A stretch of DNA of 20,000 nucleotides from an uncultured virus (IMG/VR IMGVR_UViG_3300029305_001083) (IMGVR_UViG_3300029305_001083), one strand, 5' to 3'; positions 1 through 20,000 are shown, numbered from the stretch's first letter. Made by a program: numbers and translations. The notes: generated by a model from the letters alone, not told the origin.

Positions 1-1674
1 CCAGTTTGTAAAGAAATCTCAATGGAGATGAACAGAATCGACGACCTAATTGCGAACCCTGGAATCTACTATGACGATCAAGCAATTAATGGGTTCATTG
101 AATTCTGTGAGAAAGAATTAACATTAACCGACGGAGGGGATCTACATCTATTGGACTCGTTCAAACTGTGGGCCGAACAAGTATTCGGATGGTACTACTT
201 TGTTGAACGAAGTGTGTTTGAACCATCGCCAGATGGACATGGTGGTAGATATGTAACTAAAAAGATAAAGAAACGTTTGATTAATAAACAGTATCTAATA
301 GTCGCAAGGGGTGCGGCAAAATCGATGTATGGTTCACTGATACAAAATTACTATCTTAACGTTGACGTTACAACCACTCACCAGATAACAACTGCGCCGA
401 CAATGAAACAAGCGGAGGAGATACTATCACCAATGCGTACATCTATTACCCGAGCAAAAGGACCTTTATTTCAATTCTTAACCGAAGGGTCTTTACAGAA
501 TACCACTGGCTCTAAAGCTAATAGAACAAAGCTAGCATCAACTAAGAAAGGGATAGAGAACTTCTTAACTGGTTCTTTATTGGAGATTAGACCTATGAAC
601 ATTAACAAACTTCAAGGTTTGCGTTGTAAAATCGCAACAGTTGACGAATGGTTATCGGGGGATATACGGGAGGACGTAATAGGTGCCATAGAACAAGGGG
701 CATCTAAATTAGATGATTATTTGATTATAGCTATGAGTTCAGAAGGTACTGTGCGTAATGGAAGTGGTGACACAATCAAAATGGAATTAATGGAAATCCT
801 TAAAGGTGAATATATTAATCCCCACGTATCGATTTGGTACTATCGTTTGGATGAAGTAGAAGAAGTAGGAGATCCCAGAACATGGTTGAAAGCAAACCCG
901 AATCTTGGTAAAACCGTAACATATGAAACTTATCAATTGGATGTAGAAAGAGCCGAGAAAGCACCGGCCGTTCGAAATGATATTCTAGCTAAACGTTTCG
1001 GAATACCAATGGAAGGTTATACATACTTCTTTACTTACGATGAAACACTACCACATAGACGAAGAGATTTCTGGGGTATGCCGTGTGCCATGGGAGCGGA
1101 CTTATCTCAGGGTGATGATTTCTGTGCGTTTACATTCTTATTCCCATTAAGAGATGGATCGTTTGGAATAAAGACTCGAAACTATATAACCGATAAGACA
1201 TTACATAAACTTCCAGGAGCAATGAGGTTGAAGTATGATGAATTTATGAGGGAAGGAAGCCTAATAGTTCTCGAAGGTACCGTTTTAGATATGGAGGAAG
1301 TTTATGATGACTTGGATGCACATATAGTCGATAGGGAATACGATATTCGATGCTTTGGGTTTGACCCTTATAACGCCAGAGCATTTGTTGAACGATGGGA
1401 ACGAGAAAACGGACCATTTGGTATAGAAAAAGTTATACAAGGAGCTAAAACCGAGTCAGTTCCATTAGGGGAACTTAAAAAGTTAGCAGAAGAAAGAATG
1501 TTAATCTTCGATGAAGAACTTATGACGTTTGCTATGGGGAATTGTATAACTCTAGAAGATACTAACGGTAATAGGAAGTTATTAAAAAGACGATATGACC
1601 AGAAGATAGATGCGGTTGCTGCGATGATGGATGGTTATGTCGCATATAAGTTAAATAAAGACGCCTTTGAGTAA
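1..1674 (+). CDS. terL: Terminase large subunit (5'-truncated at window edge)
   Basis: Frame is open from base 1 (PVCKEIS-MEMNRID), so the true start is probably upstream of the ATG at 22. Walker A-like IVARGAAKS, Walker B IATVDE, RNase H-like nuclease motifs GADLSQGDDF and KIDAVAAMMD. Lies upstream of the portal. Confidence 0.95.
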   Translation, partial: PVCKEISMEMNRIDDLIANPGIYYDDQAINGFIEFCEKELTLTDGGDLHLLDSFKLWAEQVFGWYYFVERSVFEPSPDGHGGRYVTKKIKKRLINKQYLIVARGAAKSMYGSLIQNYYLNVDVTTTHQITTAPTMKQAEEILSPMRTSITRAKGPLFQFLTEGSLQNTTGSKANRTKLASTKKGIENFLTGSLLEIRPMNINKLQGLRCKIATVDEWLSGDIREDVIGAIEQGASKLDDYLIIAMSSEGTVRNGSGDTIKMELMEILKGEYINPHVSIWYYRLDEVEEVGDPRTWLKANPNLGKTVTYETYQLDVERAEKAPAVRNDILAKRFGIPMEGYTYFFTYDETLPHRRRDFWGMPCAMGADLSQGDDFCAFTFLFPLRDGSFGIKTRNYITDKTLHKLPGAMRLKYDEFMREGSLIVLEGTVLDMEEVYDDLDAHIVDREYDIRCFGFDPYNARAFVERWERENGPFGIEKVIQGAKTESVPLGELKKLAEERMLIFDEELMTFAMGNCITLEDTNGNRKLLKRRYDQKIDAVAAMMDGYVAYKLNKDAFE

Positions 1675-1817
1675 GGGGGTGATAAGATGAACACTTGGAC
1701 TTGTACACGCCAAGGTGAGCTGTATCATCATGGTATTAAAGGACAAAAATGGGGTGTACGAAGATTTCAAAATAAAGACGGTTCTCTAACTCCTGCGGGT
1801 AGAAGAAGATATGACGA
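1672..1817 (+). repeat. 146-bp perfect direct repeat, copy 1 (TAA stop + RBS + first 43 codons of leader)
   Basis: Identical base for base to 2719-2864 (offset 1047), from TAAGGGGGTGATAAGATG to AGAAGATATGACGA. Confidence 0.98.
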
Positions 1818-2721
1818 ACCAAACAAGGGTCGAAAAAGTAATGGTGAGGAAATAACAATTGATGGACAGACTTTTAAAATCCATGGAAATAGACAATCTA
1901 ATAAATCATACGTCGATAAGGTTGAGAAAAAAGCAAAAGGTATGGGTTATAAAGTGGAAAGAAAGTCTAACGTAAACGAATCATCAAAAAATCAGACATT
2001 ATCCGACGAGGAGCGAAAAAGACGTATAAGAAGAAATGTAATGATCGGTGCCGGAGCTGTCGCGGCAGGATTAATCGTTATAGGGACTATGCGTTATGTT
2101 TCTAATAATAAGAAAATGGATTTAGCAAAAGGTGTGCAAGAGATTGGTTTTCGTAAAATGATTGGTGAAGAATTATCAGGAAAAGATACAATAATAAAAA
2201 AGGGTACAAAATTTCAACGTATAAGTTCTATGAAATTAGAAGACTATACTAATAAAGGTAGGGTTGTATATACTTCTTATTTAAAAGGTGATAACTCCAT
2301 ATATATGCGTGATATGCCAGATAATATAGCTCAATGGAGACGCTCGCATATCATAAATGATGGTGGAAAAGACGTATATCGACATCTGATGACTATGAAT
2401 AAAGATATTAAAGTGGCGTCACCTAGAAAGGTGTTGGAGGCATATGAGGCTGCTACTGGAAACAAACAACCTAAACATTATGAATACATGAATTTTATGA
2501 CCAATCTTGTTGATAGGGATAATGCTGATAATCAAAAATTCTTCGACTATTTAAGAAAAGCCGGTTATAACGCATTAGTTGATGAAAACGACTCAACTGC
2601 TTATACTAAGAAGCCGTTGATACTTCTTGACGCTGCTAGCGATATTGCGGGTGTTAAGACCGATAAAGTTGGCTGGTTTAATTCTATAATCAGCGTATTA
2701 ATGTATAGCGATAAAAGATAA
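1687..2721 (+). CDS. HHGIKGQKWGVRR-leader protein 1: constant leader, one hydrophobic segment, putative ART-like C-terminal domain
   Basis: 344 aa, RBS GGGGGTGA. The leader matches a motif I recall from phage head-module genes (recalled as DUF7211, not verified). Hydrophobic stretch VMIGAGAVAAGLIVIG. C-terminal motifs FQRIS / VYTSY / KDIKVAS / LRKAGYNALVDEND / PLILLD. The CDS is solid; the function is tentative. Confidence 0.75.
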   Translation: MNTWTCTRQGELYHHGIKGQKWGVRRFQNKDGSLTPAGRRRYDEPNKGRKSNGEEITIDGQTFKIHGNRQSNKSYVDKVEKKAKGMGYKVERKSNVNESSKNQTLSDEERKRRIRRNVMIGAGAVAAGLIVIGTMRYVSNNKKMDLAKGVQEIGFRKMIGEELSGKDTIIKKGTKFQRISSMKLEDYTNKGRVVYTSYLKGDNSIYMRDMPDNIAQWRRSHIINDGGKDVYRHLMTMNKDIKVASPRKVLEAYEAATGNKQPKHYEYMNFMTNLVDRDNADNQKFFDYLRKAGYNALVDENDSTAYTKKPLILLDAASDIAGVKTDKVGWFNSIISVLMYSDKR

Positions 2722-2864
2722 GGGGGTGATAAGATGAACACTTGGACTTGTACACGCCAAGGTGAGCTGTATCATCATGGTATTAAAGGACAAAAATGGG
2801 GTGTACGAAGATTTCAAAATAAAGACGGTTCTCTAACTCCTGCGGGTAGAAGAAGATATGACGA
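2719..2864 (+). repeat. 146-bp perfect direct repeat, copy 2
   Basis: Identical to 1672-1817. Confidence 0.98.
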
Positions 2865-3810: not shown

Positions 3811-3830
3811 AAAGGGGGTGAAAATTCAAA

Positions 3831-5075
3831 ATGAGAATGAGAGATAGACTACAACATGCTTGGAATGCGTTCGTCTATAATGATAACACTTATACCAACC
3901 CTCAAAATTTAGGTGGGTTTAGTACCTTCAAGCCGGATAGAGTTCATTTTTCGAGAGGTGTTGAAAAGTCAATAGTAACATCGGTGTATAATCGTTTAGC
4001 TTTGGATGTCGCGTCCCTTGCGATAAAACATGTTCGTTTGGATGAAAACGGTAGATATATGGAGGAAGTAAATTCTGGCTTACAAAATTGCTTGACCGTT
4101 GAAGCTAACATCGACCAAACAGGCAGAGCATTCTTACAAGATGTGGTAATGTCTATGTTGGACGAAGGATGTGTTGCTATTGTGCCGGTAGACACAACTG
4201 TAAATCCGGCAGTATCTGGTTCTTATGAGATAAACACAATGCGAACAGGAAAGATATTAGAGTGGTATCCGGCACATGTGAGAATCAGAGTGTATAACGA
4301 TAAGAAAGGTATACATGAAGAGATAACACTTCCAAAATCATCGGTAGCAATAATTGAAAACCCACTATATGCTGTCATCAATGAACCGAATTCAACAATG
4401 CAGCGTCTAATAAGAAAATTAAATTTATTAGATGTCGTAGACGAGCAGACAAGTTCTGGAAAACTTGACCTAATCATCCAATTACCATACGTTATTAAAA
4501 GTGAAGCCAGAAGAAGACAAGCCGAGGAACGCAGAAAAGACATCGAAATGCAATTATCGGGCTCTAAGTATGGTATAGCTTATACGGATGGAACCGAAAG
4601 AATTACACAATTGAATAGACCTGCCGAAAACAACTTAATGAAACAAGTTGAGTATTTAACTAGCATGCTCTATAGTCAATTAGGACTAACACAAAGTATT
4701 ATGGATGGAAGCGCGGATGAGAAAACAATGTTAAACTATTATAATAGAACAATCGAACCTATTATCGCGGCAATAGTAGATGAAATGAAACGTAAATTCT
4801 TGACGAAAACCGCTAGATCACAAAGACAAACGGTTATGTATTTCCGAGACCCATTTAAGTTAGTACCAGTAAATGAAATAGCTGAAATAGCCGATAAATT
4901 TACTAGAAATGAAATTATGACATCTAACGAAATAAGACAAGTAGTGGGAATGAGACCTTCGGATGACCCATCGGCAGACGAACTACGTAATAAGAACCTA
5001 AATCAATCAGGTGAAGAGATTGAAGCAAAACAGGCTCCTGAGAAAATTCAAAATGAAAAAGAGGTGACTGAATAA
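3831..5075 (+). CDS. Phage portal protein
   Basis: 414 aa between terL and the protease/capsid gene. HK97-type portal features: N-terminal VYNRLALDVASL and C-terminal IMTSNEIRQVVGMRP. RBS AAGGGGGTGA at 3812-3821. Confidence 0.92.
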   Translation: MRMRDRLQHAWNAFVYNDNTYTNPQNLGGFSTFKPDRVHFSRGVEKSIVTSVYNRLALDVASLAIKHVRLDENGRYMEEVNSGLQNCLTVEANIDQTGRAFLQDVVMSMLDEGCVAIVPVDTTVNPAVSGSYEINTMRTGKILEWYPAHVRIRVYNDKKGIHEEITLPKSSVAIIENPLYAVINEPNSTMQRLIRKLNLLDVVDEQTSSGKLDLIIQLPYVIKSEARRRQAEERRKDIEMQLSGSKYGIAYTDGTERITQLNRPAENNLMKQVEYLTSMLYSQLGLTQSIMDGSADEKTMLNYYNRTIEPIIAAIVDEMKRKFLTKTARSQRQTVMYFRDPFKLVPVNEIAEIADKFTRNEIMTSNEIRQVVGMRPSDDPSADELRNKNLNQSGEEIEAKQAPEKIQNEKEVTE

Positions 5076-6763: not shown

Positions 6764-6778
6764 TAGGAGAAATTCAAA

Positions 6779-7093
6779 ATGGCTAAATTCTATGGGGTAA
6801 TTGGCTATGCTGTAACCGAAGAAACAGAGCCGGGTATCTATGAAGAACGAATTATAGAAAAAGAACATTTCGGAGATGTAATTAGAAACACTCGTAGATT
6901 AAGTAATGCGGCAAAAGTGAATGATGATATCACCATCTCAAATCAAATAAGTATAGTAGCAGACCCATTCGCAAATAATAACTTTCATTCAATGCGATAT
7001 GTTTCATTTATGGGTTCGAAATGGAAAGTAACCGAAGTAGAAGTCCAATACCCTAGATTGATATTGACGTTAGGGGGAGTGTATAATGGATAG
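6779..7093 (+). CDS. Putative head-closure / head-tail joining protein
   Basis: 104 aa, beta-rich, directly after the capsid gene. VSFMGSKWKVTEVE resembles SPP1 gp16-like stoppers. RBS AGGAG. Confidence 0.65.
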   Translation: MAKFYGVIGYAVTEETEPGIYEERIIEKEHFGDVIRNTRRLSNAAKVNDDITISNQISIVADPFANNNFHSMRYVSFMGSKWKVTEVEVQYPRLILTLGGVYNG

Positions 7094-7394
7094 ACGAATC
7101 GAACTACACGATAAATTAATCGATATACTTGGAAATAGAAATGTATATTTTCAACCCCCAGCGTCGGTACAACTCTCTTATCCGTGTGTTATTTATAATC
7201 TTGGAACTGGCGATATTAAACGTGCGGATAATTCGGTTTACACTTATACCAATAGTTATGAGGTAATGTTTATTTACAAAAGACCAAACATGGAAATTCT
7301 TGAGACAATGTTAACCACATTTTCAATGTGCAGCGTATCAAGGGTCTATGTTGCTGATAACTTGAATCATTATACATTTAATTTATATTATTAA
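7086..7394 (+). CDS. Putative tail terminator / tail completion protein
   Basis: 102 aa with NVYFQPP...LSYPCVIY motif, immediately before the major tail gene. RBS GGGGGAG. Confidence 0.65.
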   Translation: MDRRIELHDKLIDILGNRNVYFQPPASVQLSYPCVIYNLGTGDIKRADNSVYTYTNSYEVMFIYKRPNMEILETMLTTFSMCSVSRVYVADNLNHYTFNLYY

Positions 7395-7410
7395 ATAAGG
7401 AGGAAATGAA

Positions 7411-8061: not shown

Positions 8062-8070
8062 TTTATATTT

Positions 8071-8105
8071 GGGCCTCGCGGTAAATCGTGAGGCTCTTAG
8101 ATTTT
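8071..8105 (+). terminator. Stem-loop after major tail gene (weak intrinsic terminator or mRNA-stabilising hairpin)
   Basis: GGGCCTCGCGG-TAAA-TCGTGAGGCTC forms an 11-bp stem with 3 G-U pairs, followed by TTAGATTTT. Confidence 0.7.
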
Positions 8106-8142
8106 ACAAAATACAAAAATACTAATAAGGAGAGATGAATGT

Positions 8143-8511
8143 ATGTTAAAGAAAACAGTTACTTATGTTGATTATAATGGTGTTGAAAGAACAGAGGATT
8201 TCTACTTTAATTTATCTAAAGCCGAGGTTACGGAAATGGAACTATCCGTTCGAGGTGGTTTATCTGCAATGTTAGAAGAATTAGTTAAATCGGGAGATAA
8301 TGCGAGAATCGTAGAGATTTTTAAGGATTTAGTTTTAAGATCATACGGTGAGAAATCAGCAGATGGTAAACGATTCGTAAAAAGTAAAGAACTTTCGGAA
8401 GCATTCTCACAAACAGAAGCATATAGTGAAATCTTTATGGAGCTAGCGTTAGATGAAAAAGCCGCAGCGGCTTTCGTAAATGGAATCCTACCGGCAAACC
8501 TAACCAAATAA
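8143..8511 (+). CDS. Tail assembly chaperone
   Basis: 122 aa acidic, helical protein directly after the major tail gene. RBS AAGGAG. Confidence 0.7.
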   Translation: MLKKTVTYVDYNGVERTEDFYFNLSKAEVTEMELSVRGGLSAMLEELVKSGDNARIVEIFKDLVLRSYGEKSADGKRFVKSKELSEAFSQTEAYSEIFMELALDEKAAAAFVNGILPANLTK

Positions 8512-8527
8512 ATCTAGGTGATGTCAC

Positions 8528-9067
8528 ATGTTAGAGATAACAATACCAGGTCTAGAATATTTTAATGAAGAGACGAACGAATTCACTTATTACGACGATG
8601 TTACTATAGAACTGGAGCATTCCCTTGTGTCGATTTCAAAATGGGAATCGAATTGGTGTAAACCATTTCTTGATGGTAAAGATAAAACGATGGAAGAAAT
8701 AATCGATTATGTTAAATGTATGACTATAACAGATAAAGTCGACGATGATACGTATAATAGGTTGACGGAGGGTAATCTTATAGCAATTAATGAATATATC
8801 GGTCGACCGATGACTGCAACAACATTTAGAGAAGAAAAGAAACCTGGCGGGAGAGAGATAATAACATCTGAAATAATCTACTATTGGATGGTTTCTTATA
8901 ACATACCGTTCGAGTGTCAATATTGGCATCTTAACAGGCTATTAACACTGGTGAAAGTTTGTAATGTTAAGAATAATCCACCTAAGAAAATGTCACAACA
9001 AGAGATTCTAGCAAGAAATAAAGCCTTGAATGATGCTAGAAGAAAACAATACGGAACAAGGGGATGA
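8528..9067 (+). CDS. Conserved tail-module protein (possibly a stand-alone second chaperone)
   Basis: 179 aa, RBS AGGTGA. C-terminal IPFECQYWHLNRLLTL resembles gpT/Gp15-like chaperone segments. Call rests mainly on synteny. Confidence 0.5.
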   Translation: MLEITIPGLEYFNEETNEFTYYDDVTIELEHSLVSISKWESNWCKPFLDGKDKTMEEIIDYVKCMTITDKVDDDTYNRLTEGNLIAINEYIGRPMTATTFREEKKPGGREIITSEIIYYWMVSYNIPFECQYWHLNRLLTLVKVCNVKNNPPKKMSQQEILARNKALNDARRKQYGTRG

Positions 9068-9071
9068 TAGC

Positions 9072-9449: not shown

Positions 9450-12400
9450 GTTCCATTGACAAAAGAATAGTTCAGATGCAATTCGATAATCAGGGATTTG
9501 AACGCGGAGTAAAGGCGACACAAAAATCTCTAGAAAGTCTGAATGAAAGTCTCAAAATGAAAGGAGCCACAAACGGCCTTAGTGATGTTAATAGCGGTAT
9601 AAATAAGTTGACTTCACTGGGTATTGGTGCCTTATCTTCGGGTGTTGACACAGTATCAAGTAAATTCAACGCTCTTGGTATTATCGCCGCCACAGCCTTG
9701 ATGAATATTACAAACAGGGCGATTGAAACGGGTAGACGAGTTACCAACATGTTAACCATGGAACCTATAACTGGCGGATTTAGTGAGTACGAAACTAAAA
9801 TGAATGCCATCCAGACAATCTTAACAAATACCGCTAGTAAAGGTACAACAATGGATGATGTGACAGCGGGGTTGGCTGAATTAAATAAATACGCAGACCA
9901 AACTATATATAATTTCGCCGATATGACTAAAAATATTGGTACATTCACTGCAGCCGGTATCGATCTAGACACATCTATATCCGCAATTAAAGGTATAGCT
10001 AACTTAGCTGCGGGTTCCGGTTCTAGCGCACAGCAAGCATCTACCGCGATGTATCAATTATCGCAAGCTTTAGCAGCCGGTAAAGTAAGTTTGATGGATT
10101 GGAACTCGGTCGTTAATGCTGGTATGGGTGGAGAATTATTCCAAAACGCATTAATAGAAACGGCTAATGCGATGGGTATTGTTGTCGATAAAGGAAAACC
10201 GTTCAGGGAAACATTGCAGGATGGATGGTTAACTGCTGAGGTTCTAACTAAAACATTGGAGCAATTCGCTGAAGATGAAAGTTTAATCAAAGCTGCCACA
10301 GAAGTAAAAACATTTACCCAATTAGTGGATACCATGAAAGAATCCGTATCTTCTGGATGGGCTACTTCATGGGAACACATAATCGGGGATAAAGAACAAG
10401 CGGCGGAATTCTTCACTTCGATAAGTGATGGGTTTAATTCCATCATGCAACCATCGACGGATGCTCGAAATTCCATGCTTAAGTTTTGGAATGAACACGG
10501 TGGACGCGCTGCGATTATAGAAGGCTTAACGAATATCGTGGAAAGTTTTGGTAAAGTATTACGAGGTATCGGAATGGCGTGGGATATGGTATTTCCACCG
10601 ATGACCGGACAAAAGCTCGTTGACCTTTCTAATAAATTTAAAGACTTAACGGAAAAATTCAAAATAACCGATCAAACAGCCGGTAAGATAGGACGAGTGT
10701 TTAAAGGTTTCTTTGATACCATAGTTATGGTTAAAGATGGTGTTGTGAGTTTTGTTAAGGCGATGTTTCCTATTAAAGACGTATTTAAGGGATTTGGCGC
10801 TGGTGCTCTAGACGCCGCAGCCGAGGTCGGTGGATTCTTTAGTAATCTGAGCGAAACAATCGCTAAAAAGGGATATTTCGAAACTATCGCTTCCGGTGTA
10901 ACCACGGCTTCAACGAAAATAGCGGGATTCATGTTAAATATTAAAAGTGGTATGAGTACCGCATGGGGTTATATATCGAGTATGGATTTCGAAGGATTCT
11001 TTGAAAGTATCAAAAACGGATTTGATGGTGTTCTTGAGTTTTTTAAACCCATGGTGGATAGTATAGCCAACGTTATAGGTACTATTAATTTCGATACGTT
11101 ATTCGGTCTAGTTAAAGCAGGATCGGCAATAGAGATTGTTAAAGCCTTAAAAGGTATGTTCGCTGAGATCGAGGGTGTTGGGGAATCGGCTAAAGGTATT
11201 TTTGGATCGATAAAAGAGCTTGGTAGTGGTATCGCCGAAACTCTATCGTCCGTAAGAGAAACATTAGAAGAGTATCAGAAAAATCTACAAGCTGATACAT
11301 TGATTAAAATTGCCGGAGCGATAGCAATTTTAGCAGCATCTTTATTATTGATATCCACTCTTGACGCTAAACAAATTACAACCGGCCTATTAGGTTTAAT
11401 GGGAATTGTTCTAGAACTCGTCGGTGCATTCTTATTGGTTGCTAAATTTGGTACCGGTAAAGGTATGTTGGCGATGGCAACAATTGGTGATACTATGAGA
11501 AATATAGCCATCGGTATTGGTATATTAGCGTTAGCGTTGAAAGCCCTATCAACTTTATCGCCAGAACAATTAGTTACAGGTATTCTCGGTTTAACCGTCG
11601 CTATGACTACAATGGTTATAGCTGCGAGATTAATTAGCGGGCATACAAAAGGTTTGATACGCGGATCGATAGGTCTTACTATATTCGCTGGGGCGCTACA
11701 CGTTATGGCTAGTGCGTTAGAAGCACTCGGTTCTATAGACCCCGAAGTATTAGGTTCAGGATTAGTTGCTTTGGGAATATTATTAGGTGAATTAGCTATA
11801 TTTATGATTGGAGCAAAATTTGGGTCGCTCGGTATGACATCCGCAATCGGAATATTGATATTATCACATGCGTTATTGGTACTTAAAGACGCTGTTGATG
11901 GATTTGGAAAAATGAATCCCGAACAAATCGTAAAAGGATTGGCTGGTATAGCCGGTATATTAACAGAGATAGCTTTATTCTCGGCGTTTGCCGGGGGAGG
12001 TCTAAACATGGTGGTCTTAGGTGTCGGTATGATGGCACTCGGCGAAGCAATGAAATCGCTTGCGGTTGTTATGGGATATTTTGGTACCATGGATTGGGGT
12101 GATATAGGTAAGGGTCTAGTTACTATGGCCGGATCACTACTGATACTAGGGACTTCTTCAAAACTTATATCTGGAATAAAAATGACGGTTGTTGCTATGG
12201 GTATAGCGGCAATGTCTGCGGCATTAATGTTATTGGCTGAAGTAATAAAATCAATGGGTGGTATGAAAGTAGAAGAAATACAACTCGGATTAGTCACGTT
12301 GGCTGGATCTCTAGCCATCTTAGCAATTGCCATGGCGGCTATGTCTAGTTGTTTACTTGGTGCAGCGGCATTGGTAGTGGTTGCTGGAGCATTAGCAATA

Positions 12401-13936
12401 TTAACACCTCAACTTATAATAATGTCACAAATGAGTCTAGAGGGTGTTGGTATAGCATTATTAGCACTAGCCGGGGCATTCACGGTATTAGGTTTAGCCG
12501 GCTTAATATTAACACCGGTGGTTCCAACATTAATTGGATTAGCCGGAGCAATAGCTTTACTCGGACTTGGTGCCGTAGCGTGTGGCGCAGGTTTAACGAT
12601 GATTGGTACTGGATTAGCTGCAATAGGTGTCGCTATCGGTGGTTCAGGATTATTGATTATCGAGTTCCTTAAACAGGCGATTAATTTATTACCACAATTA
12701 GGGACTAAACTGGGAGAAATGTTTGTTAATATGGCTGTAGCTATCGGTAATAGTGCATCGGCAATATTAACTGCTTTGGAGCAAATATTAATGGCTTTAT
12801 TACAAGCAATTCAAAATGTAATACCGAAAGTAATAGAGGTAGCGGTTGATATTGTAGTGGCTTTAGCCGAAGGCTTAGCTCGAGGGGTTCCAGCTGTAGT
12901 TACAGCAGCGATGGAGTTAATAAAAGGTGTCCTACAGGGTATCGCGGCTAATATCGAAGATATTGTGGTAGCTGGTATGGAGTGCGTAATCGGATTCATG
13001 GATGGTATAGCCTCTCGAATAGGAGACGTTATTCAGTCAGGTATCGAATTAGCCCTAAGCTTCATTGAGGGTGTTGCTGACGGTTTAACTAACAACAAAG
13101 AACGCATAGGGGAAGCCGTTAGAAAAGTAATAAAAGCGATGCTAACAACAGGTGTTGAGGTGATAAAAGGTGGTTTAACCGGATTCCTTCAAGGAGGTAA
13201 AGAATTACTTGGTGGTTTAGTTGACGGTATCAAAGCTAAATGGCCCGCAGTCAAAGAAGCCGTTAAAAGCGCTATCGATAAAGCAAAGGGAGCAGTAGCT
13301 AACGCGGGAAGTAAACTATTACAAGCAGGTAAAGACTTAATTCAAGGATTCATCAATGGTATTGCTTCAAAAGCTTGGGCTGTAATTTCCAAAGCGACCG
13401 AAGTTGTTGGTGGAGCAGTGGAAGCCGTTAAAAACTTCTTGGGTATTAACTCGCCATCAAGAGTATTTATGGAAATAGGTAAATATACCGCACAAGGTAT
13501 GTCTATTGGTTTGGATAAATATGCGTATATGGCTGAAGATTCGGCATCCGGATTAGCTGAAAATGTTGTAAATAATGTTAAAAACCCATTATCCAATATA
13601 GCTAAATTAGTCGATGGAGATATAGATATTAATCCAACCATCACACCGGTAATGGATTTATCGAATGTTGAACAAGGGGCACGTCGTCTAAGTGATATGA
13701 TCGGTAATCAAGATGTTAGAATAAATGCTAGAACTGGAATGCTTGCGGGAAGTGTTGGTAAAATTCAAAATGGAAAAGATAACAGCGATGTTATCTCGGC
13801 AATAAAAGATTTAAAAGAAGGTTTAAGTAATAGCACGTCATATAATATTAACGGTATAACATATGATGATGGAAGTAATATAACAAACGCCGTCGAAACA
13901 TTAGTTAGAGCGGCTAGAATAGAAAGGAGGATATAG
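9446..13936 (+). CDS. Tail tape measure protein
   Basis: 1496 aa, Ala/Gly-rich and helical. N-terminal tape-measure domain (AMYQLSQALAAGKVSLMDWNSV), long hydrophobic repeat region, C-terminal LGINSPSRVFMEIG motif. RBS GGAGGTG. Confidence 0.95.
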   Translation: MSSIDKRIVQMQFDNQGFERGVKATQKSLESLNESLKMKGATNGLSDVNSGINKLTSLGIGALSSGVDTVSSKFNALGIIAATALMNITNRAIETGRRVTNMLTMEPITGGFSEYETKMNAIQTILTNTASKGTTMDDVTAGLAELNKYADQTIYNFADMTKNIGTFTAAGIDLDTSISAIKGIANLAAGSGSSAQQASTAMYQLSQALAAGKVSLMDWNSVVNAGMGGELFQNALIETANAMGIVVDKGKPFRETLQDGWLTAEVLTKTLEQFAEDESLIKAATEVKTFTQLVDTMKESVSSGWATSWEHIIGDKEQAAEFFTSISDGFNSIMQPSTDARNSMLKFWNEHGGRAAIIEGLTNIVESFGKVLRGIGMAWDMVFPPMTGQKLVDLSNKFKDLTEKFKITDQTAGKIGRVFKGFFDTIVMVKDGVVSFVKAMFPIKDVFKGFGAGALDAAAEVGGFFSNLSETIAKKGYFETIASGVTTASTKIAGFMLNIKSGMSTAWGYISSMDFEGFFESIKNGFDGVLEFFKPMVDSIANVIGTINFDTLFGLVKAGSAIEIVKALKGMFAEIEGVGESAKGIFGSIKELGSGIAETLSSVRETLEEYQKNLQADTLIKIAGAIAILAASLLLISTLDAKQITTGLLGLMGIVLELVGAFLLVAKFGTGKGMLAMATIGDTMRNIAIGIGILALALKALSTLSPEQLVTGILGLTVAMTTMVIAARLISGHTKGLIRGSIGLTIFAGALHVMASALEALGSIDPEVLGSGLVALGILLGELAIFMIGAKFGSLGMTSAIGILILSHALLVLKDAVDGFGKMNPEQIVKGLAGIAGILTEIALFSAFAGGGLNMVVLGVGMMALGEAMKSLAVVMGYFGTMDWGDIGKGLVTMAGSLLILGTSSKLISGIKMTVVAMGIAAMSAALMLLAEVIKSMGGMKVEEIQLGLVTLAGSLAILAIAMAAMSSCLLGAAALVVVAGALAILTPQLIIMSQMSLEGVGIALLALAGAFTVLGLAGLILTPVVPTLIGLAGAIALLGLGAVACGAGLTMIGTGLAAIGVAIGGSGLLIIEFLKQAINLLPQLGTKLGEMFVNMAVAIGNSASAILTALEQILMALLQAIQNVIPKVIEVAVDIVVALAEGLARGVPAVVTAAMELIKGVLQGIAANIEDIVVAGMECVIGFMDGIASRIGDVIQSGIELALSFIEGVADGLTNNKERIGEAVRKVIKAMLTTGVEVIKGGLTGFLQGGKELLGGLVDGIKAKWPAVKEAVKSAIDKAKGAVANAGSKLLQAGKDLIQGFINGIASKAWAVISKATEVVGGAVEAVKNFLGINSPSRVFMEIGKYTAQGMSIGLDKYAYMAEDSASGLAENVVNNVKNPLSNIAKLVDGDIDINPTITPVMDLSNVEQGARRLSDMIGNQDVRINARTGMLAGSVGKIQNGKDNSDVISAIKDLKEGLSNSTSYNINGITYDDGSNITNAVETLVRAARIERRI

Positions 13937-16222
13937 ATGGCAAAGGCAACGATAACGCAGATAGGATTACAAACTGGAACAACCAGAACCGTTTTTGCTA
14001 CTTGGACGTGGACGAAACGAGATCAAACCGATAAATACGATGTTCGCTGGTATTATGGTACAGGAGACGGGATTCGTTTCATAGGTAATCAAGAGCAGGT
14101 TGAAATAACAAATGCGCAGCTTCAAAGTACATATACTCCGCCCGAAAACGCATATGTTGTTAAACTCCAAGTTAAGCCTATCGCTAAAACACGTAAGGTT
14201 AACGATAAAGACATAGCATATTGGACGGCTGAATGGTCGACCGAAGCGGTTTATTATTTTAGTAATAACCCACCAACCACGCCGGGGATACCAAATGTAG
14301 TGATAGACGACTATACACTTACTACTTCTTTGGAAAATCTAAACGTTGGTGGGAATCAGATACAATTTCAAGTTGTAAAAGACGATTCCACTATATTTAA
14401 TAGCGGAATAGCGAATATAGTAACATCCTCGGCGTCTTATTCGTGTTCGGTTACACCAGGTTCAAAATATAAGGTTAGATGTAGAGCCAAGAAAAACGAT
14501 ATGTATAGCGGATGGACTGAGTATTCGGCTAATGTGGATACCATCCCAGCAACACCAAAAGAAATAACATCTTGTCATGCTATAAGTGATACAGCAGTGT
14601 TTATGAGTTGGTCTTCTATATCTTCTTCCACATCATATGATATAGAATATGCCACGAATCCGGATTATCTCGGAAATTCAAACGCATCCACGACGATAAA
14701 TAATATTACAAATTCACAATATACGATTACTGGATTGACTACTGGACAAAAATATTATTTTAGAGTTAGAGCGGTAAATGAAAAAGGCGAGTCGGCTTGG
14801 AGTAATTCTTCAAGTGTTATCATTGGGACAAAACCTGTTGCACCCACTACGTGGTCTTCGACAACTACTGCTACGATTGGAGAGCAAGTGGTATTATATT
14901 GGATACATAATACCGAAGACGGTTCAAGTGAACATTATGCCGAGGTAGAGATGTATGTGAACGGTACGAAATATACTTATACTGTAAAAAACGAAAATAA
15001 AGACGAAGAGAAAAATAGTTTCTATACTGTAAATACGTCTAGATATTCCGACGGGGCAACTATTAATTGGCGAGTTAGAACCGCAGGTATAACCTTGAAT
15101 TATGGTGAATGGTCTATACAAAGAACTGTAAATATTTACGCCCCAGCAACACTAGAATTACATATAACAGATAAAAGTGGTGATGACGTGTATGAAATAA
15201 CATCATTCCCATTTTTCATTAAAGGTATAGCTGGTCCAGATAACCAAACGGTAATCGGTTATCATGTCTCCATAACATCTAATTCGTCTTATGAAACCAT
15301 CGATGAGATGGGAAACGTCAAAATGATTAATGCTGGTGATGAGGTATATTCTAAATTTTACGATGTAAAACAAGAATTGATTTTAGAATTAACGGCCGGA
15401 AGTATAGATTTGGAGAATAATATCAAATATACAGTAAATTGTATATCCACAATGGATACCGGCATAGCTGCTCAAGAATCTCGAACATTCATGGTTGCGT
15501 GGTCGGAAAACACATATGAACCCAACGCTGAAATAGGATACGATCCCGAAACATTATCGGCATATATCCGCCCATATTGCGAAGATATAAATGGCAATTT
15601 AATCGGTGATATAACTTTGTCGGTTTATAGACGTCAATACGATGGGGGTTTTATTGAAATCGGTAAGGGTCTAACTAATACGAATTCCACTTTTGTTACA
15701 GACCCACATCCATCACTGGATTATGGACGCTACAGAATTGTGGCTGTAGATAATACAACAGGGAGCGTGAGTTATTCGGATATCCCTGGGTATCCAATTG
15801 GTGAAAAAGCAATAATTATTCAATGGGGCGAGAAATGGATTAATTTTGACGACCTAGGTGAGCTACCACAAGAACCCCCAGCATGGTCGGGTTCAATGTT
15901 AAAACTACCTTACAATATAGACGTGTCTGACAGTAACTCGGCGGATGTATCATTCATCGAATATATAGGGCGTTCTCATCCTGTTAGTTACTACGGCACA
16001 CAATTGGGGTCAACATCAACATGGAAGGTCGACATCGATAAAAAAGATAAAAAAACATTATATTCTTTAAGACGTCTCGCGACATGGATGGGGGATGTTT
16101 ATGTTCGTGAACCATCCGGAAGTGGTTATTGGGCCAACATATCCGTATCATTCGACCAAACACATAGAGAATTAGTCATACCTGTAACATTGAATATTAC
16201 AAGAGTAGAAGGTGGTATATAA
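13937..16222 (+). CDS. Minor tail protein with multiple fibronectin type III / Ig-like domains (distal-tail position)
   Basis: 761 aa. Clear FN3 signatures YTITGLTTGQKYYFRVRAVNEKGESAWS, YKVRCRAK...YSGWT and WRVRTAG...YGEWS. First gene after the tape measure. RBS AAAGGAGG. Confidence 0.8.
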   Translation: MAKATITQIGLQTGTTRTVFATWTWTKRDQTDKYDVRWYYGTGDGIRFIGNQEQVEITNAQLQSTYTPPENAYVVKLQVKPIAKTRKVNDKDIAYWTAEWSTEAVYYFSNNPPTTPGIPNVVIDDYTLTTSLENLNVGGNQIQFQVVKDDSTIFNSGIANIVTSSASYSCSVTPGSKYKVRCRAKKNDMYSGWTEYSANVDTIPATPKEITSCHAISDTAVFMSWSSISSSTSYDIEYATNPDYLGNSNASTTINNITNSQYTITGLTTGQKYYFRVRAVNEKGESAWSNSSSVIIGTKPVAPTTWSSTTTATIGEQVVLYWIHNTEDGSSEHYAEVEMYVNGTKYTYTVKNENKDEEKNSFYTVNTSRYSDGATINWRVRTAGITLNYGEWSIQRTVNIYAPATLELHITDKSGDDVYEITSFPFFIKGIAGPDNQTVIGYHVSITSNSSYETIDEMGNVKMINAGDEVYSKFYDVKQELILELTAGSIDLENNIKYTVNCISTMDTGIAAQESRTFMVAWSENTYEPNAEIGYDPETLSAYIRPYCEDINGNLIGDITLSVYRRQYDGGFIEIGKGLTNTNSTFVTDPHPSLDYGRYRIVAVDNTTGSVSYSDIPGYPIGEKAIIIQWGEKWINFDDLGELPQEPPAWSGSMLKLPYNIDVSDSNSADVSFIEYIGRSHPVSYYGTQLGSTSTWKVDIDKKDKKTLYSLRRLATWMGDVYVREPSGSGYWANISVSFDQTHRELVIPVTLNITRVEGGI

Positions 16223-17280
16223 TGCCTAATTGGTTATCTTCAATGCAACAAACGTTCGAATATTATATTGTTGATCCGGGAACATGGAAAGATATAAAAA
16301 AAATCGATAATATAACAGACAGTACAATAAATAGAGATTTAGAAGCAGAGACACTTGGTTCGGCATCAATCACAATTACAGAGTCGCTAGGTGAATGTTA
16401 TATACGCGTTTACCTTATAACGATTCAAAATGGAATTAGAGAAAAGCATCCGTTAGGTACTTTCTTGGTACAGACTCCATCGTATAGCTTTGATGGGAAG
16501 ATTAAAAACATAACGATGGATGCATACACCCCTCTTTTAGAACTTAAAGAGAACCCAACACCGCTTGGGTACTCTATTCTAAAAGGTGAAAATATATTAG
16601 ATATCTCTTATAGAATAGTAAGAGAGCGATTAAGAGCTCCGGTTGTAAAAACCGAAAACGAGGATATCCTTAATGTGAATTTCATCGCAAATATTGATGA
16701 TACATGGATCACATTCATACGTGATTTATTGGGAAATGCTAAGCATTCTTTATATTTAGATGAAATGGGTCGTGTGTTATTCACACCAGAACAAGACACG
16801 GCGTCATTACAACCCGTGTGGTCATATGACGACTCGAATAGTTCCATATTATACCCTCAGTTAGATATAGATCACGATTTATATGGCATACCAAATGTTG
16901 TGGAGGTTGTATATTCTAATGGACTCGAGTATTATTACGGTAGAGCGGTAAATAATGACCCCGCGAGTCCTATATCTGTGGTCAATAGAGGGCGTGAGAT
17001 AACACATCGCGAGAATAATCCCAATTTACTAGGTAACCCAAGCAAAGAAGAAGTACAAGCCTATGCTGAGCGAACACTTCGCGAGTTATCCGCGTTGGAA
17101 TACACAATAACTTATACACATGGATATTGTCCTGTTAGAATAGGAGATTGTGTACGGTTGAATTATTCTAGAGCGGGATTACATGGTGTAAAAGCGAAAG
17201 TAATTAGTCAAAGTATTAAATGTGAACCCGGGTGTCCGGTAACAGAGAAAGCCGTATTTACATCAGAATTATGGAGGTGA
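16222..17280 (+). CDS. Putative baseplate hub / Tal-like tail protein
   Basis: 352 aa, TAATG coupling. LYLDEMGRVLF, IPNVVEV and PVRIGDCVRL resemble hub (gp27-like) proteins. Synteny agrees. Confidence 0.6.
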   Translation: MPNWLSSMQQTFEYYIVDPGTWKDIKKIDNITDSTINRDLEAETLGSASITITESLGECYIRVYLITIQNGIREKHPLGTFLVQTPSYSFDGKIKNITMDAYTPLLELKENPTPLGYSILKGENILDISYRIVRERLRAPVVKTENEDILNVNFIANIDDTWITFIRDLLGNAKHSLYLDEMGRVLFTPEQDTASLQPVWSYDDSNSSILYPQLDIDHDLYGIPNVVEVVYSNGLEYYYGRAVNNDPASPISVVNRGREITHRENNPNLLGNPSKEEVQAYAERTLRELSALEYTITYTHGYCPVRIGDCVRLNYSRAGLHGVKAKVISQSIKCEPGCPVTEKAVFTSELWR

Positions 17281-17284
17281 TTAA

Positions 17285-20000
17285 ATGAGCCTATCAAACG
17301 AATTAATATCAAAATTTGTCAAAATAACCAATGATTTCAATAGAGACGAACCAAAAGAAGGAACTGTATATGGTACAGCGGTTGAGTATGAAGGTGAAAT
17401 ATATGTAAAAATAGACGGATCGGATTTATTAACCCCTATAGATACTACTGCGGATATCAAAGAGGGTGAACGCGTCACCGTAATGATTAAAAACCACAAC
17501 GCGACCGTATCTGGTAATATTTCATCGCCTTCTGCTAGTAGTAATGATGTTAAAAAAGTAACACAAGATGTGGAATCAATCGGTAGTCAAATAACCGAAT
17601 TCGAGATTATTGTGGCAGATAAAGTTAGCACGAAAGAATTGGATGCGGAAGTTGCACGAATAGATACACTCATTGCTGGAAAAGCTACCATAGAAGAATT
17701 AGAAGCCGTGGATGCTAAGATAAAAAATTTAGATGTTGAAGTATTGGAAGCTGTAAATGCTAAAATAGAGAACCTTGAAGCAAAAGATGCGCATATCGAA
17801 AATCTCGTAGCCGATAATTTAAAAGCTACTAATGCAGAAATAGAAATATTGGACGCTGAAGTTGCTGATATAAAAACGCTGGTTAACGGTAATTTAACAA
17901 GCGATAATATTCTCTCGTTTCATATAACAGCGGATAACGTGACGATGGACGATGCATTCATATCAGATGCCATGATTGCGAATGTTAGTGCTGGGAAAAT
18001 AAGCTCGGGACACATAAATACTAATTTGGTAAATATTCAAAGCGAAGATGGAAGTATGTTGATAAACGGATCAACCCAACAATTCAAGGATGACGAAGGA
18101 AATGTACGTATACAGATAGGTAAAGATGAGAGTGGTGATTTCACTTTCATACTATATGGCGAGGATGGAAAAGGTCAAATATTAAATCAAAATGGTATAA
18201 CTTCATCGGCTATAGCAGATGGTTTGATAGTTAATAGTATGGTTAGCGATAATGCCGCCATATCAGGCGGTAAGTTGGATATTTCAAGTGTTATAACGGA
18301 AATAAACGATGATAATAGCACAACGATAAAATCTAATAAAATTTATTTGAATGACCAAAAACAATCACTCGAAGTGGCATTCAACAGTCTTAAGACTAAA
18401 GTTGACATGATCCAAGATGTAACTATTGATGGCGATTTATCATCGGTTATAGCGCAAGTACAAACCAACACTACACAAATAAATGTTAATAAAGAGGGTA
18501 TTAATGCTCTTGTGGCCGAGGACAATATATTAAAAAAACAAATAACCGATTTAAACGGGGAAGTGTCGTCGGTTGAAGAAACATTGAGTTCTAAATATAC
18601 ATCCCTGGAACAAAATGTTAATGGGTTTAAAACCTCGGTGGCCGATACATATGTATCGAAAGGAGAGTTTAAAGGACTTCAAATTGGTGGTAGAAATTTA
18701 TTATTGGATACATCTACACCTAAGAGTATAGTTGGTAATAATGGTTCAAACCAAACCATGTTATTATATACTATATCCGACCCATCTAAAGTTACAGGTG
18801 ATGTAACTTTCAGCTTCACATATATTATAGATGGATATGAGAGCGGTGATATCAAAATACAAACCCGCCCAACACAGTATATGAATCTACTTGATCCTTC
18901 AATAAAACCCACCGAAGATGGCGTGTTCCACTATACCCATACCGCGACTATCAATCTTGGTACTATTAGTTTTAAGGAGATTCAAATTCGACTAGATAAT
19001 TTCATCGGCAGTGTAACTATATCCGAGATGAAGCTGGAACAAGGTGAAAAAGCAACAACCTGGACCCCAGCACCCGAAGACTTAGAGAAGGTAGTTGATG
19101 ATCTAGATAGCAATCTAACAAGCAACTACTCAACTACATCAGCCATGAACTCGGCTATTAATCAAAAAGCGAATGAAATTACAAGTTCTGTAAGTAGTAC
19201 TTACGCGACCAAAACGTCGGTTACCAATCTAAGTAACAACCTTTCTAATAATTACTCAACCACATCAGCTATGAACTCGGCTATTAATCAAAAAGCGAAT
19301 GAAATTACAAGTTCTGTAAGTAGTACTTATGCCACAAAAACATCGCTCAATAATCTAAGTAATGATCTTTCCAATCTATCTATAGGTAGCAGAAATCTGG
19401 TACGAGAGAAAAGTGGCTATAAATATGGATATTTACGTTCGTCAACGGGTGATCAGGTCGATACCGGTAGTCTTAATGGAAATAAAGATGCCTACTCCAC
19501 ATTTTACATTCAAGTAAAAAAAGATGAGGAGTACACGCTTACCGCCTATGATAGCACTGAAAATATTACAGGGGCCATAACCTTACTTTTCTATGATGCG
19601 AATAAACAATGGATCTCATCACACCCAATACACCACGACGGGGTGAGTAGTATAACACCGAAGTCAAAAATTGTAAAGATGCCTAGTGATGGTTATATTA
19701 GATATTCGCGTAGGGGTTACGGATTATTAAAGGTTAAATTAGAAAAAGGTAATAAAGCGACGGATTGGACCCCAGCACCCGAGGATATTCAAAGCGATAT
19801 CGATGGTATAACTAATAATCTATCCGTAAATTACTCAACTACGTCGGCCATGAACTCGGCTATTAATCAAAAAGCGAATGAAATTACAAGTTCTGTAAGT
19901 AGTACTTACGCGACCAAAACGTCGGTTACCAATCTAAGTAACAACCTTTCTAATAATTACTCAACCACATCAGCTATGAACTCGGCTATTAATCAAAAAG
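17285..20000 (+). CDS. Tail fibre / receptor-binding protein (3'-truncated; absent from ORF track)
   Basis: ATG at 17285 after GGAGGTGA. My manual translation is open for about 905 codons to the window end (MSLSNELISKFVKITND...). Contains a coiled-coil-like region, two G[GS]RNL...KLExGxKATxWTPAPED domains and 42-aa repeats. Confidence 0.88.
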   Translation, partial: MSLSNELISKFVKITNDFNRDEPKEGTVYGTAVEYEGEIYVKIDGSDLLTPIDTTADIKEGERVTVMIKNHNATVSGNISSPSASSNDVKKVTQDVESIGSQITEFEIIVADKVSTKELDAEVARIDTLIAGKATIEELEAVDAKIKNLDVEVLEAVNAKIENLEAKDAHIENLVADNLKATNAEIEILDAEVADIKTLVNGNLTSDNILSFHITADNVTMDDAFISDAMIANVSAGKISSGHINTNLVNIQSEDGSMLINGSTQQFKDDEGNVRIQIGKDESGDFTFILYGEDGKGQILNQNGITSSAIADGLIVNSMVSDNAAISGGKLDISSVITEINDDNSTTIKSNKIYLNDQKQSLEVAFNSLKTKVDMIQDVTIDGDLSSVIAQVQTNTTQINVNKEGINALVAEDNILKKQITDLNGEVSSVEETLSSKYTSLEQNVNGFKTSVADTYVSKGEFKGLQIGGRNLLLDTSTPKSIVGNNGSNQTMLLYTISDPSKVTGDVTFSFTYIIDGYESGDIKIQTRPTQYMNLLDPSIKPTEDGVFHYTHTATINLGTISFKEIQIRLDNFIGSVTISEMKLEQGEKATTWTPAPEDLEKVVDDLDSNLTSNYSTTSAMNSAINQKANEITSSVSSTYATKTSVTNLSNNLSNNYSTTSAMNSAINQKANEITSSVSSTYATKTSLNNLSNDLSNLSIGSRNLVREKSGYKYGYLRSSTGDQVDTGSLNGNKDAYSTFYIQVKKDEEYTLTAYDSTENITGAITLLFYDANKQWISSHPIHHDGVSSITPKSKIVKMPSDGYIRYSRRGYGLLKVKLEKGNKATDWTPAPEDIQSDIDGITNNLSVNYSTTSAMNSAINQKANEITSSVSSTYATKTSVTNLSNNLSNNYSTTSAMNSAINQK
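19124..19375 (+). repeat. Tandem 126-bp (42-aa) repeat x2 in tail fibre
   Basis: NYSTTSAMNSAINQKANEITSSVSSTYATKTS units start at 19124 and 19250. Confidence 0.95.
19829..20000 (+). repeat. Second tandem set of the 126-bp repeat (truncated by window end)
   Basis: Units start at 19829 and 19955. 19847-20000 is identical to 19142-19295. Confidence 0.95.

What the first reader, a model, noticed from the sequence alone, without database searches (positions are those of the whole stretch)
776..18194. Strand-biased recurring motif (AAAT)TCAAAATG(G/A) dispersed through the whole operon
Seen: TCAAAATG starts at 776, 3826, 5048, 6774, 8636, 9552, 12811, 13765, 15318, 16425 and 18187, roughly every 1-3 kb. 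I noticed no reverse-strand copy (CATTTTGA) by eye. Longer matches include GAAAATTCAAAATGA at both 3820 and 5042, AAATTCAAAATGG at 6770 and 13761, and ATTCAAAATG at 12809 and 16423. It is read in different frames (IKM, SKW, IQN), so protein constraint does not explain it. It supplies the start codons of the portal and head-closure genes. A rough base-composition estimate gives only about 1-2 expected copies. Inference: an oriented, non-palindromic binding site, comparable in logic to mycobacteriophage stoperators, Chi/KOPS-like sites, or a packaging, ejection or antitermination signal.
Basis: partly seen in the sequence, partly recalled or inferred. Interest (0 to 1): 0.7.

Follow-up and report, generated by a model that had tools for sequence, protein, structure and literature searches.

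The report
One-strand word marking phage virion genes
An eight-letter DNA word is repeated every one to three thousand bases, on one strand only, through the particle-building genes of this gut phage and its relatives, and it is most likely where the phage's own unusual RNA polymerase starts reading, although no experiment shows this yet.

Summary
Confirmed: TCAAAATG occurs 11 times on +, never on - (Markov 0.8-1.1; codon shuffle mean 4.6, 0 of 2000 reach 11). The window is the virion operon of a 1706/Oengus/actinophage BI-AM-AU-DJ-CC-EL-type siphophage. All 78 related loci carry the word on the gene strand only (434:0), from 33% to 62% GC, as a strict octamer held at synonymous positions, evenly spaced, purged from the opposite strand of the virion block and scarce in the replication half. 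Five outgroup phages show nothing (10:11). The clade encodes a single-chain two-barrel RNA polymerase (DFDGD; folds like QDE-1 and P23-45 gp64), which the original 1706 record labels a structural protein. Best reading (0.6): start sites of that polymerase for the virion genes. Main rival (0.2): programmed single-strand nicks, as in phage tf. No start or nick was mapped; most sites lie inside genes, and one 95-kb relative carries 68 sites reaching into replication genes. This scan noted the same word, with the same promoter reading, on two other genomes. I found it in no paper searched. Boldest reading (0.15): a packaged polymerase uses the array to pull the genome into the cell.

The parts
776..783 (+). 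TCAAAATG inside the large terminase gene (Ile-Lys-Met); an ancient site
   Evidence: kept in 6 of 7 aligned relatives and in most TerL G.GD.IKME words up to 59% GC
3826..3833 (+). TCAAAATG whose ATG is the portal start codon (3831)
   Evidence: kept in 8 of 8 aligned relatives; supplies the portal start in 37 of 84 non-redundant relatives
5048..5055 (+). TCAAAATG at the end of the portal gene, 27 bases before the protease-capsid start; in most relatives this site is the capsid start codon itself
   Evidence: 70 of 85 relatives have it as the protease-capsid start, 4 more within 60 bases upstream
6774..6781 (+). TCAAAATG whose ATG starts the gene after the capsid gene (6779; head closure by position)
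   Evidence: 41 of 81 relatives at the start, 10 more upstream
8636..8643 (+). TCAAAATG inside the gene after the tail chaperone (Ser-Lys-Trp); synonymous codons fixed
   Evidence: 52 of 61 relatives; 19 of 19 at GC >= 50%, where other Ser-Lys pairs use TCA-AAA in 5 of 322
9552..9559 (+). TCAAAATG in the tape measure gene (Leu-Lys-Met)
   Evidence: kept in 5 of 6 aligned relatives
12811..12818 (+). TCAAAATG in the tape measure gene (Ile-Gln-Asn)
   Evidence: only 1 relative aligned here, which keeps it
13765..13772 (+). TCAAAATG near the end of the tape measure gene (Ile-Gln-Asn-Gly)
   Evidence: the 3 aligned relatives read TCAAAATA here, so this copy is not conserved as an octamer
15318..15325 (+). 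TCAAAATG in the tail gene 13937-16222 (Val-Lys-Met)
   Evidence: kept in 2 of 5 aligned relatives
16425..16432 (+). TCAAAATG in the tail gene 16222-17280 (Ile-Gln-Asn-Gly)
   Evidence: kept in 6 of 6 aligned relatives
18187..18194 (+). TCAAAATG in the large tail or fibre gene starting at 17285 (Asn-Gln-Asn-Gly)
   Evidence: no relative aligned
1..20000 (+). Virion operon, all on +: TerL (to 1674, start outside the window), two DUF7211 proteins (1687-2721, 2734-3810), portal (3831-5075), protease-capsid fusion (5075-6763), 6779-7093, tail terminator (7086-7394), major tail (7411-8061), tail chaperone (8143-8511), 8528-9067, neck/tail completion (to 9449), tape measure (9446-13936), tail genes to the window end
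8071..8096 (+). Terminator-like hairpin after the major tail gene, with no motif between it and the next gene
   Evidence: a consensus match only

Best explanation
TCAAAATG(G) is a DNA recognition and start site of the clade's own single-chain, two-barrel RNA polymerase. An array of these short promoters, one every 1-3 kb and all facing the same way, keeps the long virion operon transcribed independently of the host polymerase. [quoted passage not shown] Inferred: that the polymerase reads the word; that transcription starts at or next to its ATG(G), as in phiKZ late promoters; that the timing is late. Many copies sit on start codons probably because the spacer between ribosome site and ATG is the cheapest place to write the word.
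For: A phage-encoded reader is needed: 434:0 in 78 of 78 loci, and the same word in phages of Lactococcus, Faecalibacterium, Streptomyces, Arthrobacter, Gordonia, Rhodococcus and Microbacterium, but 10:11 in 5 outgroup phages. Same-strand TCAAAATGG is purged from the replication side, 1 against 9.7, lower than all 150 controls, while the opposite-strand 9-mer there is at background, 4 against 5.4. Candidate enzyme: 938-aa protein of the close relative G003 with invariant SGAD.DGD in 143 aligned sequences, HTH domains at both ends and a weak RdRP hit, a confident model (pLDDT 85.7) whose best solved matches are QDE-1, P74-26 gp62 and P23-45 gp64; 250 cultured-phage records hold it and 243 hold the tail protein, with the same host groups; Koert et al. 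named it a putative RNAP. Its relative YonO transcribes the structural and lysis genes of SPbeta. 24% of 341 sites supply a start codon and 8.5% lie intergenic within 40 bases of one, against 6.8% and 0.8% for other NNAAAATG words; the capsid start carries it in 70 of 85 relatives. In 6 of 7 cultured lytic phages the dense run of sites lies left of the first TATAAT-repeat cassette; for the seventh (Count) my pattern found only one repeat.
Against: No transcript end was mapped: only assembled contigs were available. 61% of sites are inside genes and are not shifted towards the next start (histogram 53/54/38/20/25 from 5' to 3'). A site on a gene's own ATG cannot serve that gene unless the message is leaderless. 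Order against terminators was 2 downstream, 2 upstream, 2 overlapping. The major tail gene, a high-copy protein, has the site at its start in only 3 of 83. G008 has 68 sites, up to five in one gene, and they reach the primase-polymerase gene. Opposite-strand 8-mers are also mildly scarce on the replication side (17 against 32). The polymerase never occurs apart from the HNH, terminase and other core nucleases in what I examined, so presence and absence cannot single it out. The window's own polymerase gene lies outside the window and was not found in the nearest held genome, a 340-contig assembly. A packaged polymerase is odd for a purely late enzyme.
Confidence: 0.6

Rival explanations
1. The word is the target of a phage nickase, and packaged DNA carries programmed single-strand breaks there, in the half of the genome that is packaged first.
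For: Phage tf is a close precedent: 14 sites of a strict 9-mer, all on one strand, 11 in the left half, gene-independent, and proposed to lie in the first-packaged half (PMC3517423). This explains strictness, indifference to gene borders, the purge from the other strand and the 68 sites of G008. An HNH gene is a core gene at the left end. A nick could also be the polymerase's entry point, so this and the best explanation are not exclusive.
Against: The block follows the virion genes, not a fixed share of the genome: the dense run spans 3-22 kb of 113 kb in Qui and 7-36 kb of 78 kb in Poco6. It does not explain why same-strand TCAAAATGG is purged from replication genes (1 against 9.7). I found no report of nicks in this group (0 uses of 'nick' in the cluster AU preprint).
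Confidence: 0.2
2. Stoperator-like operators: a phage repressor bound at many oriented sites blocks host-polymerase read-through into late genes.
For: Overlap with start codons and intergenic gaps; scarcity on the same strand in replication genes; temperate members exist. The likeness to L5 stoperators is recalled, not read here.
Against: Lytic members keep the word (clusters AU and EL are described as lacking lysogeny genes). No single-mismatch variant is enriched more than 1.8-fold, unlike a degenerate operator. A reversed roadblock should be neutral, yet reversed copies are purged.
Confidence: 0.06
3. An RNA-level signal in late mRNA (antitermination reload, RNase site or translational operator).
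For: Coding-strand only, evenly spaced, often at ribosome binding regions.
Against: An RNA word has no reason to be purged from the untranscribed strand (0 against 12.3; 2 against 17.4), and in two minus-strand genes it follows the DNA strand, not the gene.
Confidence: 0.05
4. A replication, recombination or translocation signal (primase site, Chi-like stop for the phage exonuclease, KOPS-like or terminase guide).
For: Spacing of 1-3 kb resembles Okazaki fragments (inference); the clade encodes a primase-polymerase and a Cas4-like nuclease.
Against: The 1706 primase prefers 5'-CCAAC-3' with low stringency (PMC12205980). Half of the genome lacks the word. The nearest bacterial genome holds it evenly on both strands, 167:184 in 4.2 Mb, so it is no host repeat.
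Confidence: 0.06

Closest known systems
YonO of Bacillus phage SPbeta and its late promoter (PMC5467207; passages read)
   Same: Single-chain two-barrel phage RNA polymerase of about 100 kDa that serves structural genes.
   Different: YonO transcribes its late genes as one operon from one mapped start, and its promoter sequence was left undetermined. Here there are 5-20 or more oriented copies, and the enzyme has HTH domains at both ends and is labelled a virion protein in 1706.
phiKZ late promoter 5'-T(-3)ATG(+1)-3' (PMC7598289; passages read)
   Same: Very short promoter ending in ATG, read by a phage two-barrel polymerase.
   Different: Four letters, multisubunit enzyme, not sufficient for specificity; here eight to nine letters, strict and strand-purged.
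Thermus phage P23-45 gp96 and gp64 promoters (PMC10770324; passages read)
   Same: Single-chain two-barrel polymerases (gp64 and P74-26 gp62 are fold hits) with their own motifs; gp96 is packaged.
   Different: They serve pre-early and early genes; middle and late genes use host polymerase.
T4 late promoter TATAAATA and the T7 phi promoter series (recalled, not read here)
   Same: An 8-base oriented late promoter in many copies (T4); an oriented series of promoters along a one-directional genome, some inside genes (T7).
   Different: T4 needs host core with gp55, gp33 and the clamp; T7 promoters are 23 bases and the enzyme is of another family.
Programmed nick sites of phages tf, T5 and phiKMV (PMC3517423; passages and Discussion read)
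   Same: Strict short word, one strand only, concentrated in one half of the genome.
   Different: Those sites are shown to be nicked and are unevenly spaced; nothing shows nicks here.
N4 virion RNA polymerase, transcription-driven genome injection (PMC4496689; passages read)
   Same: Packaged polymerase with promoters at the left end of a linear genome.
   Different: N4 has three hairpin promoters for early genes and a T7-type enzyme; the review cites unpublished data for the injection role.

Membership tests
Promoter of a phage-encoded two-barrel RNA polymerase | The phage group encodes a two-barrel RNAP with DxDGD | tested here: met
   Invariant SGAD.DGD in 143 sequences; model matches QDE-1 and P23-45 gp64. 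Shown for relatives; the window's own gene is outside the window.
Promoter of a phage-encoded two-barrel RNA polymerase | Oriented with the transcribed genes, absent from phages without the enzyme | tested here: met
   434:0 in 78 loci; 10:11 in 5 outgroup phages with distant terminases, whose lack of the enzyme follows from the host groups listed and was not searched genome by genome.
Promoter of a phage-encoded two-barrel RNA polymerase | Placed upstream of genes and downstream of terminators | tested here: inconclusive
   Enriched at and before starts, but 61% internal; 2 down, 2 up, 2 overlapping against terminators.
Promoter of a phage-encoded two-barrel RNA polymerase | Transcript 5' ends map to the word; enzyme initiates there | not testable with these tools
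   Only contigs were offered; no read starts.
Programmed nick site (tf, T5, phiKMV type) | Strict word on one strand, concentrated in one genome half | tested here: met
Programmed nick site (tf, T5, phiKMV type) | Ligatable single-strand breaks in virion DNA at the word | not testable with these tools
   No raw or long reads of virion DNA were available.
Stoperator (mycobacteriophage L5 type; features recalled) | Belongs to the repressor system of a temperate phage | tested here: not met
   Present in lytic members without repressor or integrase.
Stoperator (mycobacteriophage L5 type; features recalled) | 13-base degenerate asymmetric operator, mostly between genes | tested here: not met
   8-9 bases, strict; 61% inside genes.
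Host Chi, KOPS or uptake sequence | Host-specific word, enriched or skewed in the host chromosome | tested here: not met
   Same word across two phyla; 167:184 in the 4.2-Mb nearest genome (fragmented, so replichore skew was not tested, and it may not be the host).
Primase recognition site of 1706 GP55 | Matches 5'-CCAAC-3' on either strand | tested here: not met
   PMC12205980 passages
Candidate family Sisseviridae / 1706-Oengus-actinophage supercluster | Shared terminase, protease-capsid fusion and tail tube with Oengus, 1706 and clusters BI, AM, AU, DJ, CC, EL | tested here: met
   TerL 59-81% identical to members, then a gap to 28%; tail tube 43-62%. The name Sisseviridae comes from its holding Oengus; that paper's clustering was not rerun.

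The most novel reading that the evidence does not exclude
The polymerase is carried in the virion and the evenly spaced array is a track for genome entry: the left end enters first, the packaged enzyme transcribes from site to site and pulls in the virion-gene half until the host-type early promoters arrive, and newly made enzyme reuses the same sites for late expression. For it: the original 1706 record labels the polymerase gene orf75 'structural protein', all genes face one way, the array fills the DNA between the left end and the TATAAT cassette, and spacing is regular. Against it: terminase genes at the left end suggest lambda-like packaging, which would send the right end in first (inference), and Tanis has a 12-kb gap before its early cassette.
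Probability: 0.15. Interest if true: 0.9.

Novelty: new variant of a known kind. Interest (0 to 1): 0.7.

Why it matters
The clade is large (1233 polymerase clusters at 50% identity with E <= 1e-30; the candidate family is reported in 80% of infants), has cultured members in Lactococcus and several Actinobacteria, and appears to have moved between phyla. A fixed 8-9 base signal shared across those hosts gives a direct handle on how a YonO-type single-chain polymerase finds its genes, which the YonO paper left open, and would help explain host-independent gene expression. If the enzyme needs only this word it could be a compact orthogonal expression system. If the sites are nicks, a fourth phage group joins an unexplained phenomenon. 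One end-mapping experiment and one alkaline gel on phage 1706 separate the two.

Tried and rejected
No own genome is held. Sequencing runs were contigs only, so no start, end or nick could be seen; laying 4 runs gave no pile-ups, and its variant table showed 40 of 2463 rows, so I drew nothing from it about the sites. A single-sequence fold of the polymerase was unusable (pLDDT 42); a sequence search of the PDB gave only HTH-level matches; the ESM Atlas returned only the family's own clusters. Sigma-70 promoter matches in the window are not above shuffles, 56 against 73.6. No conserved upstream element or pairing partner was seen within 60 bases of the word, and local GC is flat beyond 20 bases. 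The terminator-order test was uninformative. The N-terminal His-x-Gly...Trp-Gly tag of the polymerase looks like DUF7211 by eye, but Pfam did not match it in 3 of 3 polymerases tried, while it matched 1706 orf7 (below the curated cut-off) and the window gene at 1687. 'First site lies after the HNH gene' held in 58 of 62 loci, but may follow from spacing counted from the genome end, so I do not use it as promoter evidence. I looked for a phage with the polymerase but another virion module and found none: Siphovirus 29632 is a partial member with 1 site, and L174 has no plus-strand site in 7.6 kb but its contig ends before the terminase. The 1706 primase site does not match. The 2008 paper on 1706 is not held, so the basis of the 'structural protein' label was not read.
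Full report
Observation. TCAAAATG stands at the 11 stated places on + and never on -. Markov models of order 0-3 expect 0.8-1.1 copies; a shuffle of synonymous codons within each gene gives 4.6 on average and never 11 in 2000 runs. The mean spacing is 1741 bases (916-3259) with a coefficient of variation of 0.47, against 0.92 for random placement (p = 0.005) and lower than all 104 control 7-mers of similar count in the window.

What the window is. It is the virion operon of a siphophage, all genes on +. Its terminase is 73-81% identical to those of Streptomyces, Gordonia, Rhodococcus, Arthrobacter and Curtobacterium phages and 59% to a 1706-like lactococcal phage, after which identity drops to 28%. 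The tail tube finds the same set plus Faecalibacterium phage Oengus. This is the cross-phylum group of Koert et al. (bioRxiv 10.1101/842583; two passages read) and probably candidate family Sisseviridae (PMC10159846; one passage read). Near-identical DNA occurs in animal faeces and gut runs.

Conservation. All 78 viral loci found with the tail tube carry the word on the gene strand and none on the other, 434:0, at 33-62% GC. After removing redundancy (52 of 78 kept, 690 kb) it is the most over-represented 8-mer, 270 against 25.4, and 0 against 12.3 on the other strand; none of the 24 single-base variants exceeds 1.8-fold. Cultured phages agree: Qui 16:0, Poco6 9:0, Count 7:0, Oengus 22:2, ClubPenguin 5:0 over whole records; 1706 8:0, Circum 6:0, Tanis 5:0 in their first 50 kb. 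Five outgroup phages give 10:11. The letters are held beyond protein need: at one Ser-Lys-Trp word, 19 of 19 relatives with GC of 50% or more keep TCA-AAA-TGG, while other Ser-Lys pairs in such genomes use TCA-AAA in 5 of 322; when the first Ser-Lys-Trp loses it, a second one four codons on often has it. These loci share ancestry, so the counts are not independent events. Not every window copy is conserved: three relatives read TCAAAATA at 13765.

Distribution. In whole genomes the sites crowd into the virion half although the replication half is on the same strand. In 86 non-redundant loci anchored on the polymerase gene (of 158), the side leading into the virion genes has 225 same-strand copies against 25.5 expected and 2 opposite-strand copies against 17.4; the replication side has 18 against 35 and 17 against 32, and only 1 same-strand TCAAAATGG against 9.7. 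Spacing is more even than random in 29 of 29 sets, 23 at p < 0.05; one set with four sites was skipped. In larger genomes the block follows the virion genes rather than a fixed share of the genome. Exceptions: G008 has 68 sites over 62 of 95 kb, dense in tail-fibre genes and thinning out into the primase-polymerase gene; actinophage tape-measure genes often have none.

Position. Of 341 sites in 60 sets, 81 supply a start codon, 36 lie within 40 bases before one, 17 are otherwise intergenic and 207 are internal; starts come from my own gene caller. The capsid start carries the word in 70 of 85 relatives, the portal in 37 of 84, the gene after the capsid in 41 of 81, TerL in 10 of 89, the major tail in 3 of 83, and the presumed small terminase, HNH and tail terminator in none. 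Internal sites are not shifted to gene ends, and the order against terminators was undecided.

The candidate reader. Near the right end of the close relative G003 (tail tube 87% identical) lies a 938-aa gene with HTH domains at both ends and a weak RdRP hit. SGAD.DGD is invariant in 143 aligned relatives. A model from 78 sequences (pLDDT 85.7) matches QDE-1, P74-26 gp62, P23-45 gp64 and plant RDR2, at low TM-scores of about 0.3. It is a single-chain two-barrel polymerase, as Koert et al. proposed; their preprint does not use the word promoter. Its 1706 counterpart orf75 (38% identical over the full length) is labelled 'structural protein' in the original GenBank record, a label given selectively and withheld from the tail chaperone genes. 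I recall that the 2008 paper did virion mass spectrometry, but could not read it. Activity of this enzyme has not been shown in anything I read. The window's own polymerase gene was not seen.

Mechanism. One word in hosts of two phyla needs a phage factor. The purge from the opposite strand points to DNA, not RNA. A promoter explains three things at once: reversed copies in the virion block would make antisense RNA, same-strand copies in replication genes would misexpress them, and an even array keeps a 20-35 kb operon supplied. YonO (late genes) and the phiKZ TATG promoter are precedents. I put this at 0.6. Programmed nicks as in phage tf fit the strictness, the strand rule and the indifference to gene borders equally well, and fit G008 better; 0.2. 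Stoperator, RNA-level and replication readings each fail one or more tests. The virion label raises the bolder possibility of transcription-driven genome entry, as described for N4; 0.15, counted within the promoter reading.

In print? A full-text search for the word with 'phage' returned 431 papers, of which I saw 20 titles, none on this group, and opened none. Searches on 1706, ReqiPepy6, YonO, Oengus, Sisseviridae and the actinophage clusters gave listings only, apart from the papers cited. The cluster AU preprint describes a 32-bp repeat around genes 37-41, a different element (passages); the Microbacterium survey passages on cluster EL do not mention the word; the Faecalibacterium paper has no use of 'RNA polymerase'. 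I read no supplements, bioRxiv supplements are closed, and subscription papers on 1706 and the Rhodococcus phages are not held, so a mention there is possible.

Earlier notes. Two unchecked notes of this scan report the same word on other genomes and read it as this polymerase's late promoter. I had reached that reading before seeing them. One mentions 68 sites over 62 kb, which led me to the large records; G008 shows that pattern. What this report tests itself is the even spacing, the strictness, the purge by genome half, the outgroup control, the virion label and the nick rival.

Verdict. A real, clade-wide, selected cis-element; most likely the undescribed promoter of a phage single-chain polymerase; new variant of a known kind; interest 0.7.

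Noticed in passing
L100, L104, L188, L189, L102 and G003-G009; weak in the window: A second oriented word, ATATT(T/C), is strongly enriched on the gene strand: ClubPenguin 68:2 (4.4 expected), Tanis 75:0 (13.2), Poco6 50:0 (9.5), Count 85:3 (14.0), Oengus 69:28. In gut members it is densest in the replication half and lowest where TCAAAATG is dense. Circum and 1706 favour the reverse form instead (51:90, 45:135). Unexplained; possibly a second class of signal.
   Followed up: partly
L190:8083-11172 (1706 orf75): The RNA polymerase homologue is labelled 'structural protein' in the original GenBank record, which suggests a virion-packaged YonO-type enzyme.
   Followed up: partly
window 1687-1800 and 2734-2850; G008 genes at 28867 and 67544 (reversed record): Two window genes share an identical N-terminus with DUF7211. 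In G008 two non-polymerase proteins begin with the polymerase's own HYG..SGRYPWGSG tag. It may be a modular capsid-targeting tag.
   Followed up: partly
L104:28650-38300, L101:24044-26300, L188:40942-44400, L187:37667-42600: Arrays of TATAAT- or TATAGT-containing repeats before the small genes that follow the tail module, probably host-type early promoters; probably the repeat that the AU preprint read as a recombination boundary.
   Followed up: partly
L187:26829, 28824, 37225, 45505; L103:2440-24540: Arthrobacter phages carry a variant TCAAAATAGGAG before several tail genes.
   Followed up: no
L100, L103, L104, L187, L188, L189: bases 1-30: A similar left-end sequence with a CCCC..GGGG core in the actinophage records, a candidate terminase binding site.
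   Followed up: no
window 19127-19362: 126-bp tandem repeat, 1.9 copies, in the large tail gene; the same protein words recur near the window end.
   Followed up: no
G007 (L281-L285): The 95-kb record holds the polymerase and primase-polymerase genes twice, probably an assembly overlap.
   Followed up: no
G008, reversed record 64217-65284: A 355-aa ORF among the tail-fibre genes that looks like a reverse transcriptase by eye carries five copies of the word.
   Followed up: no
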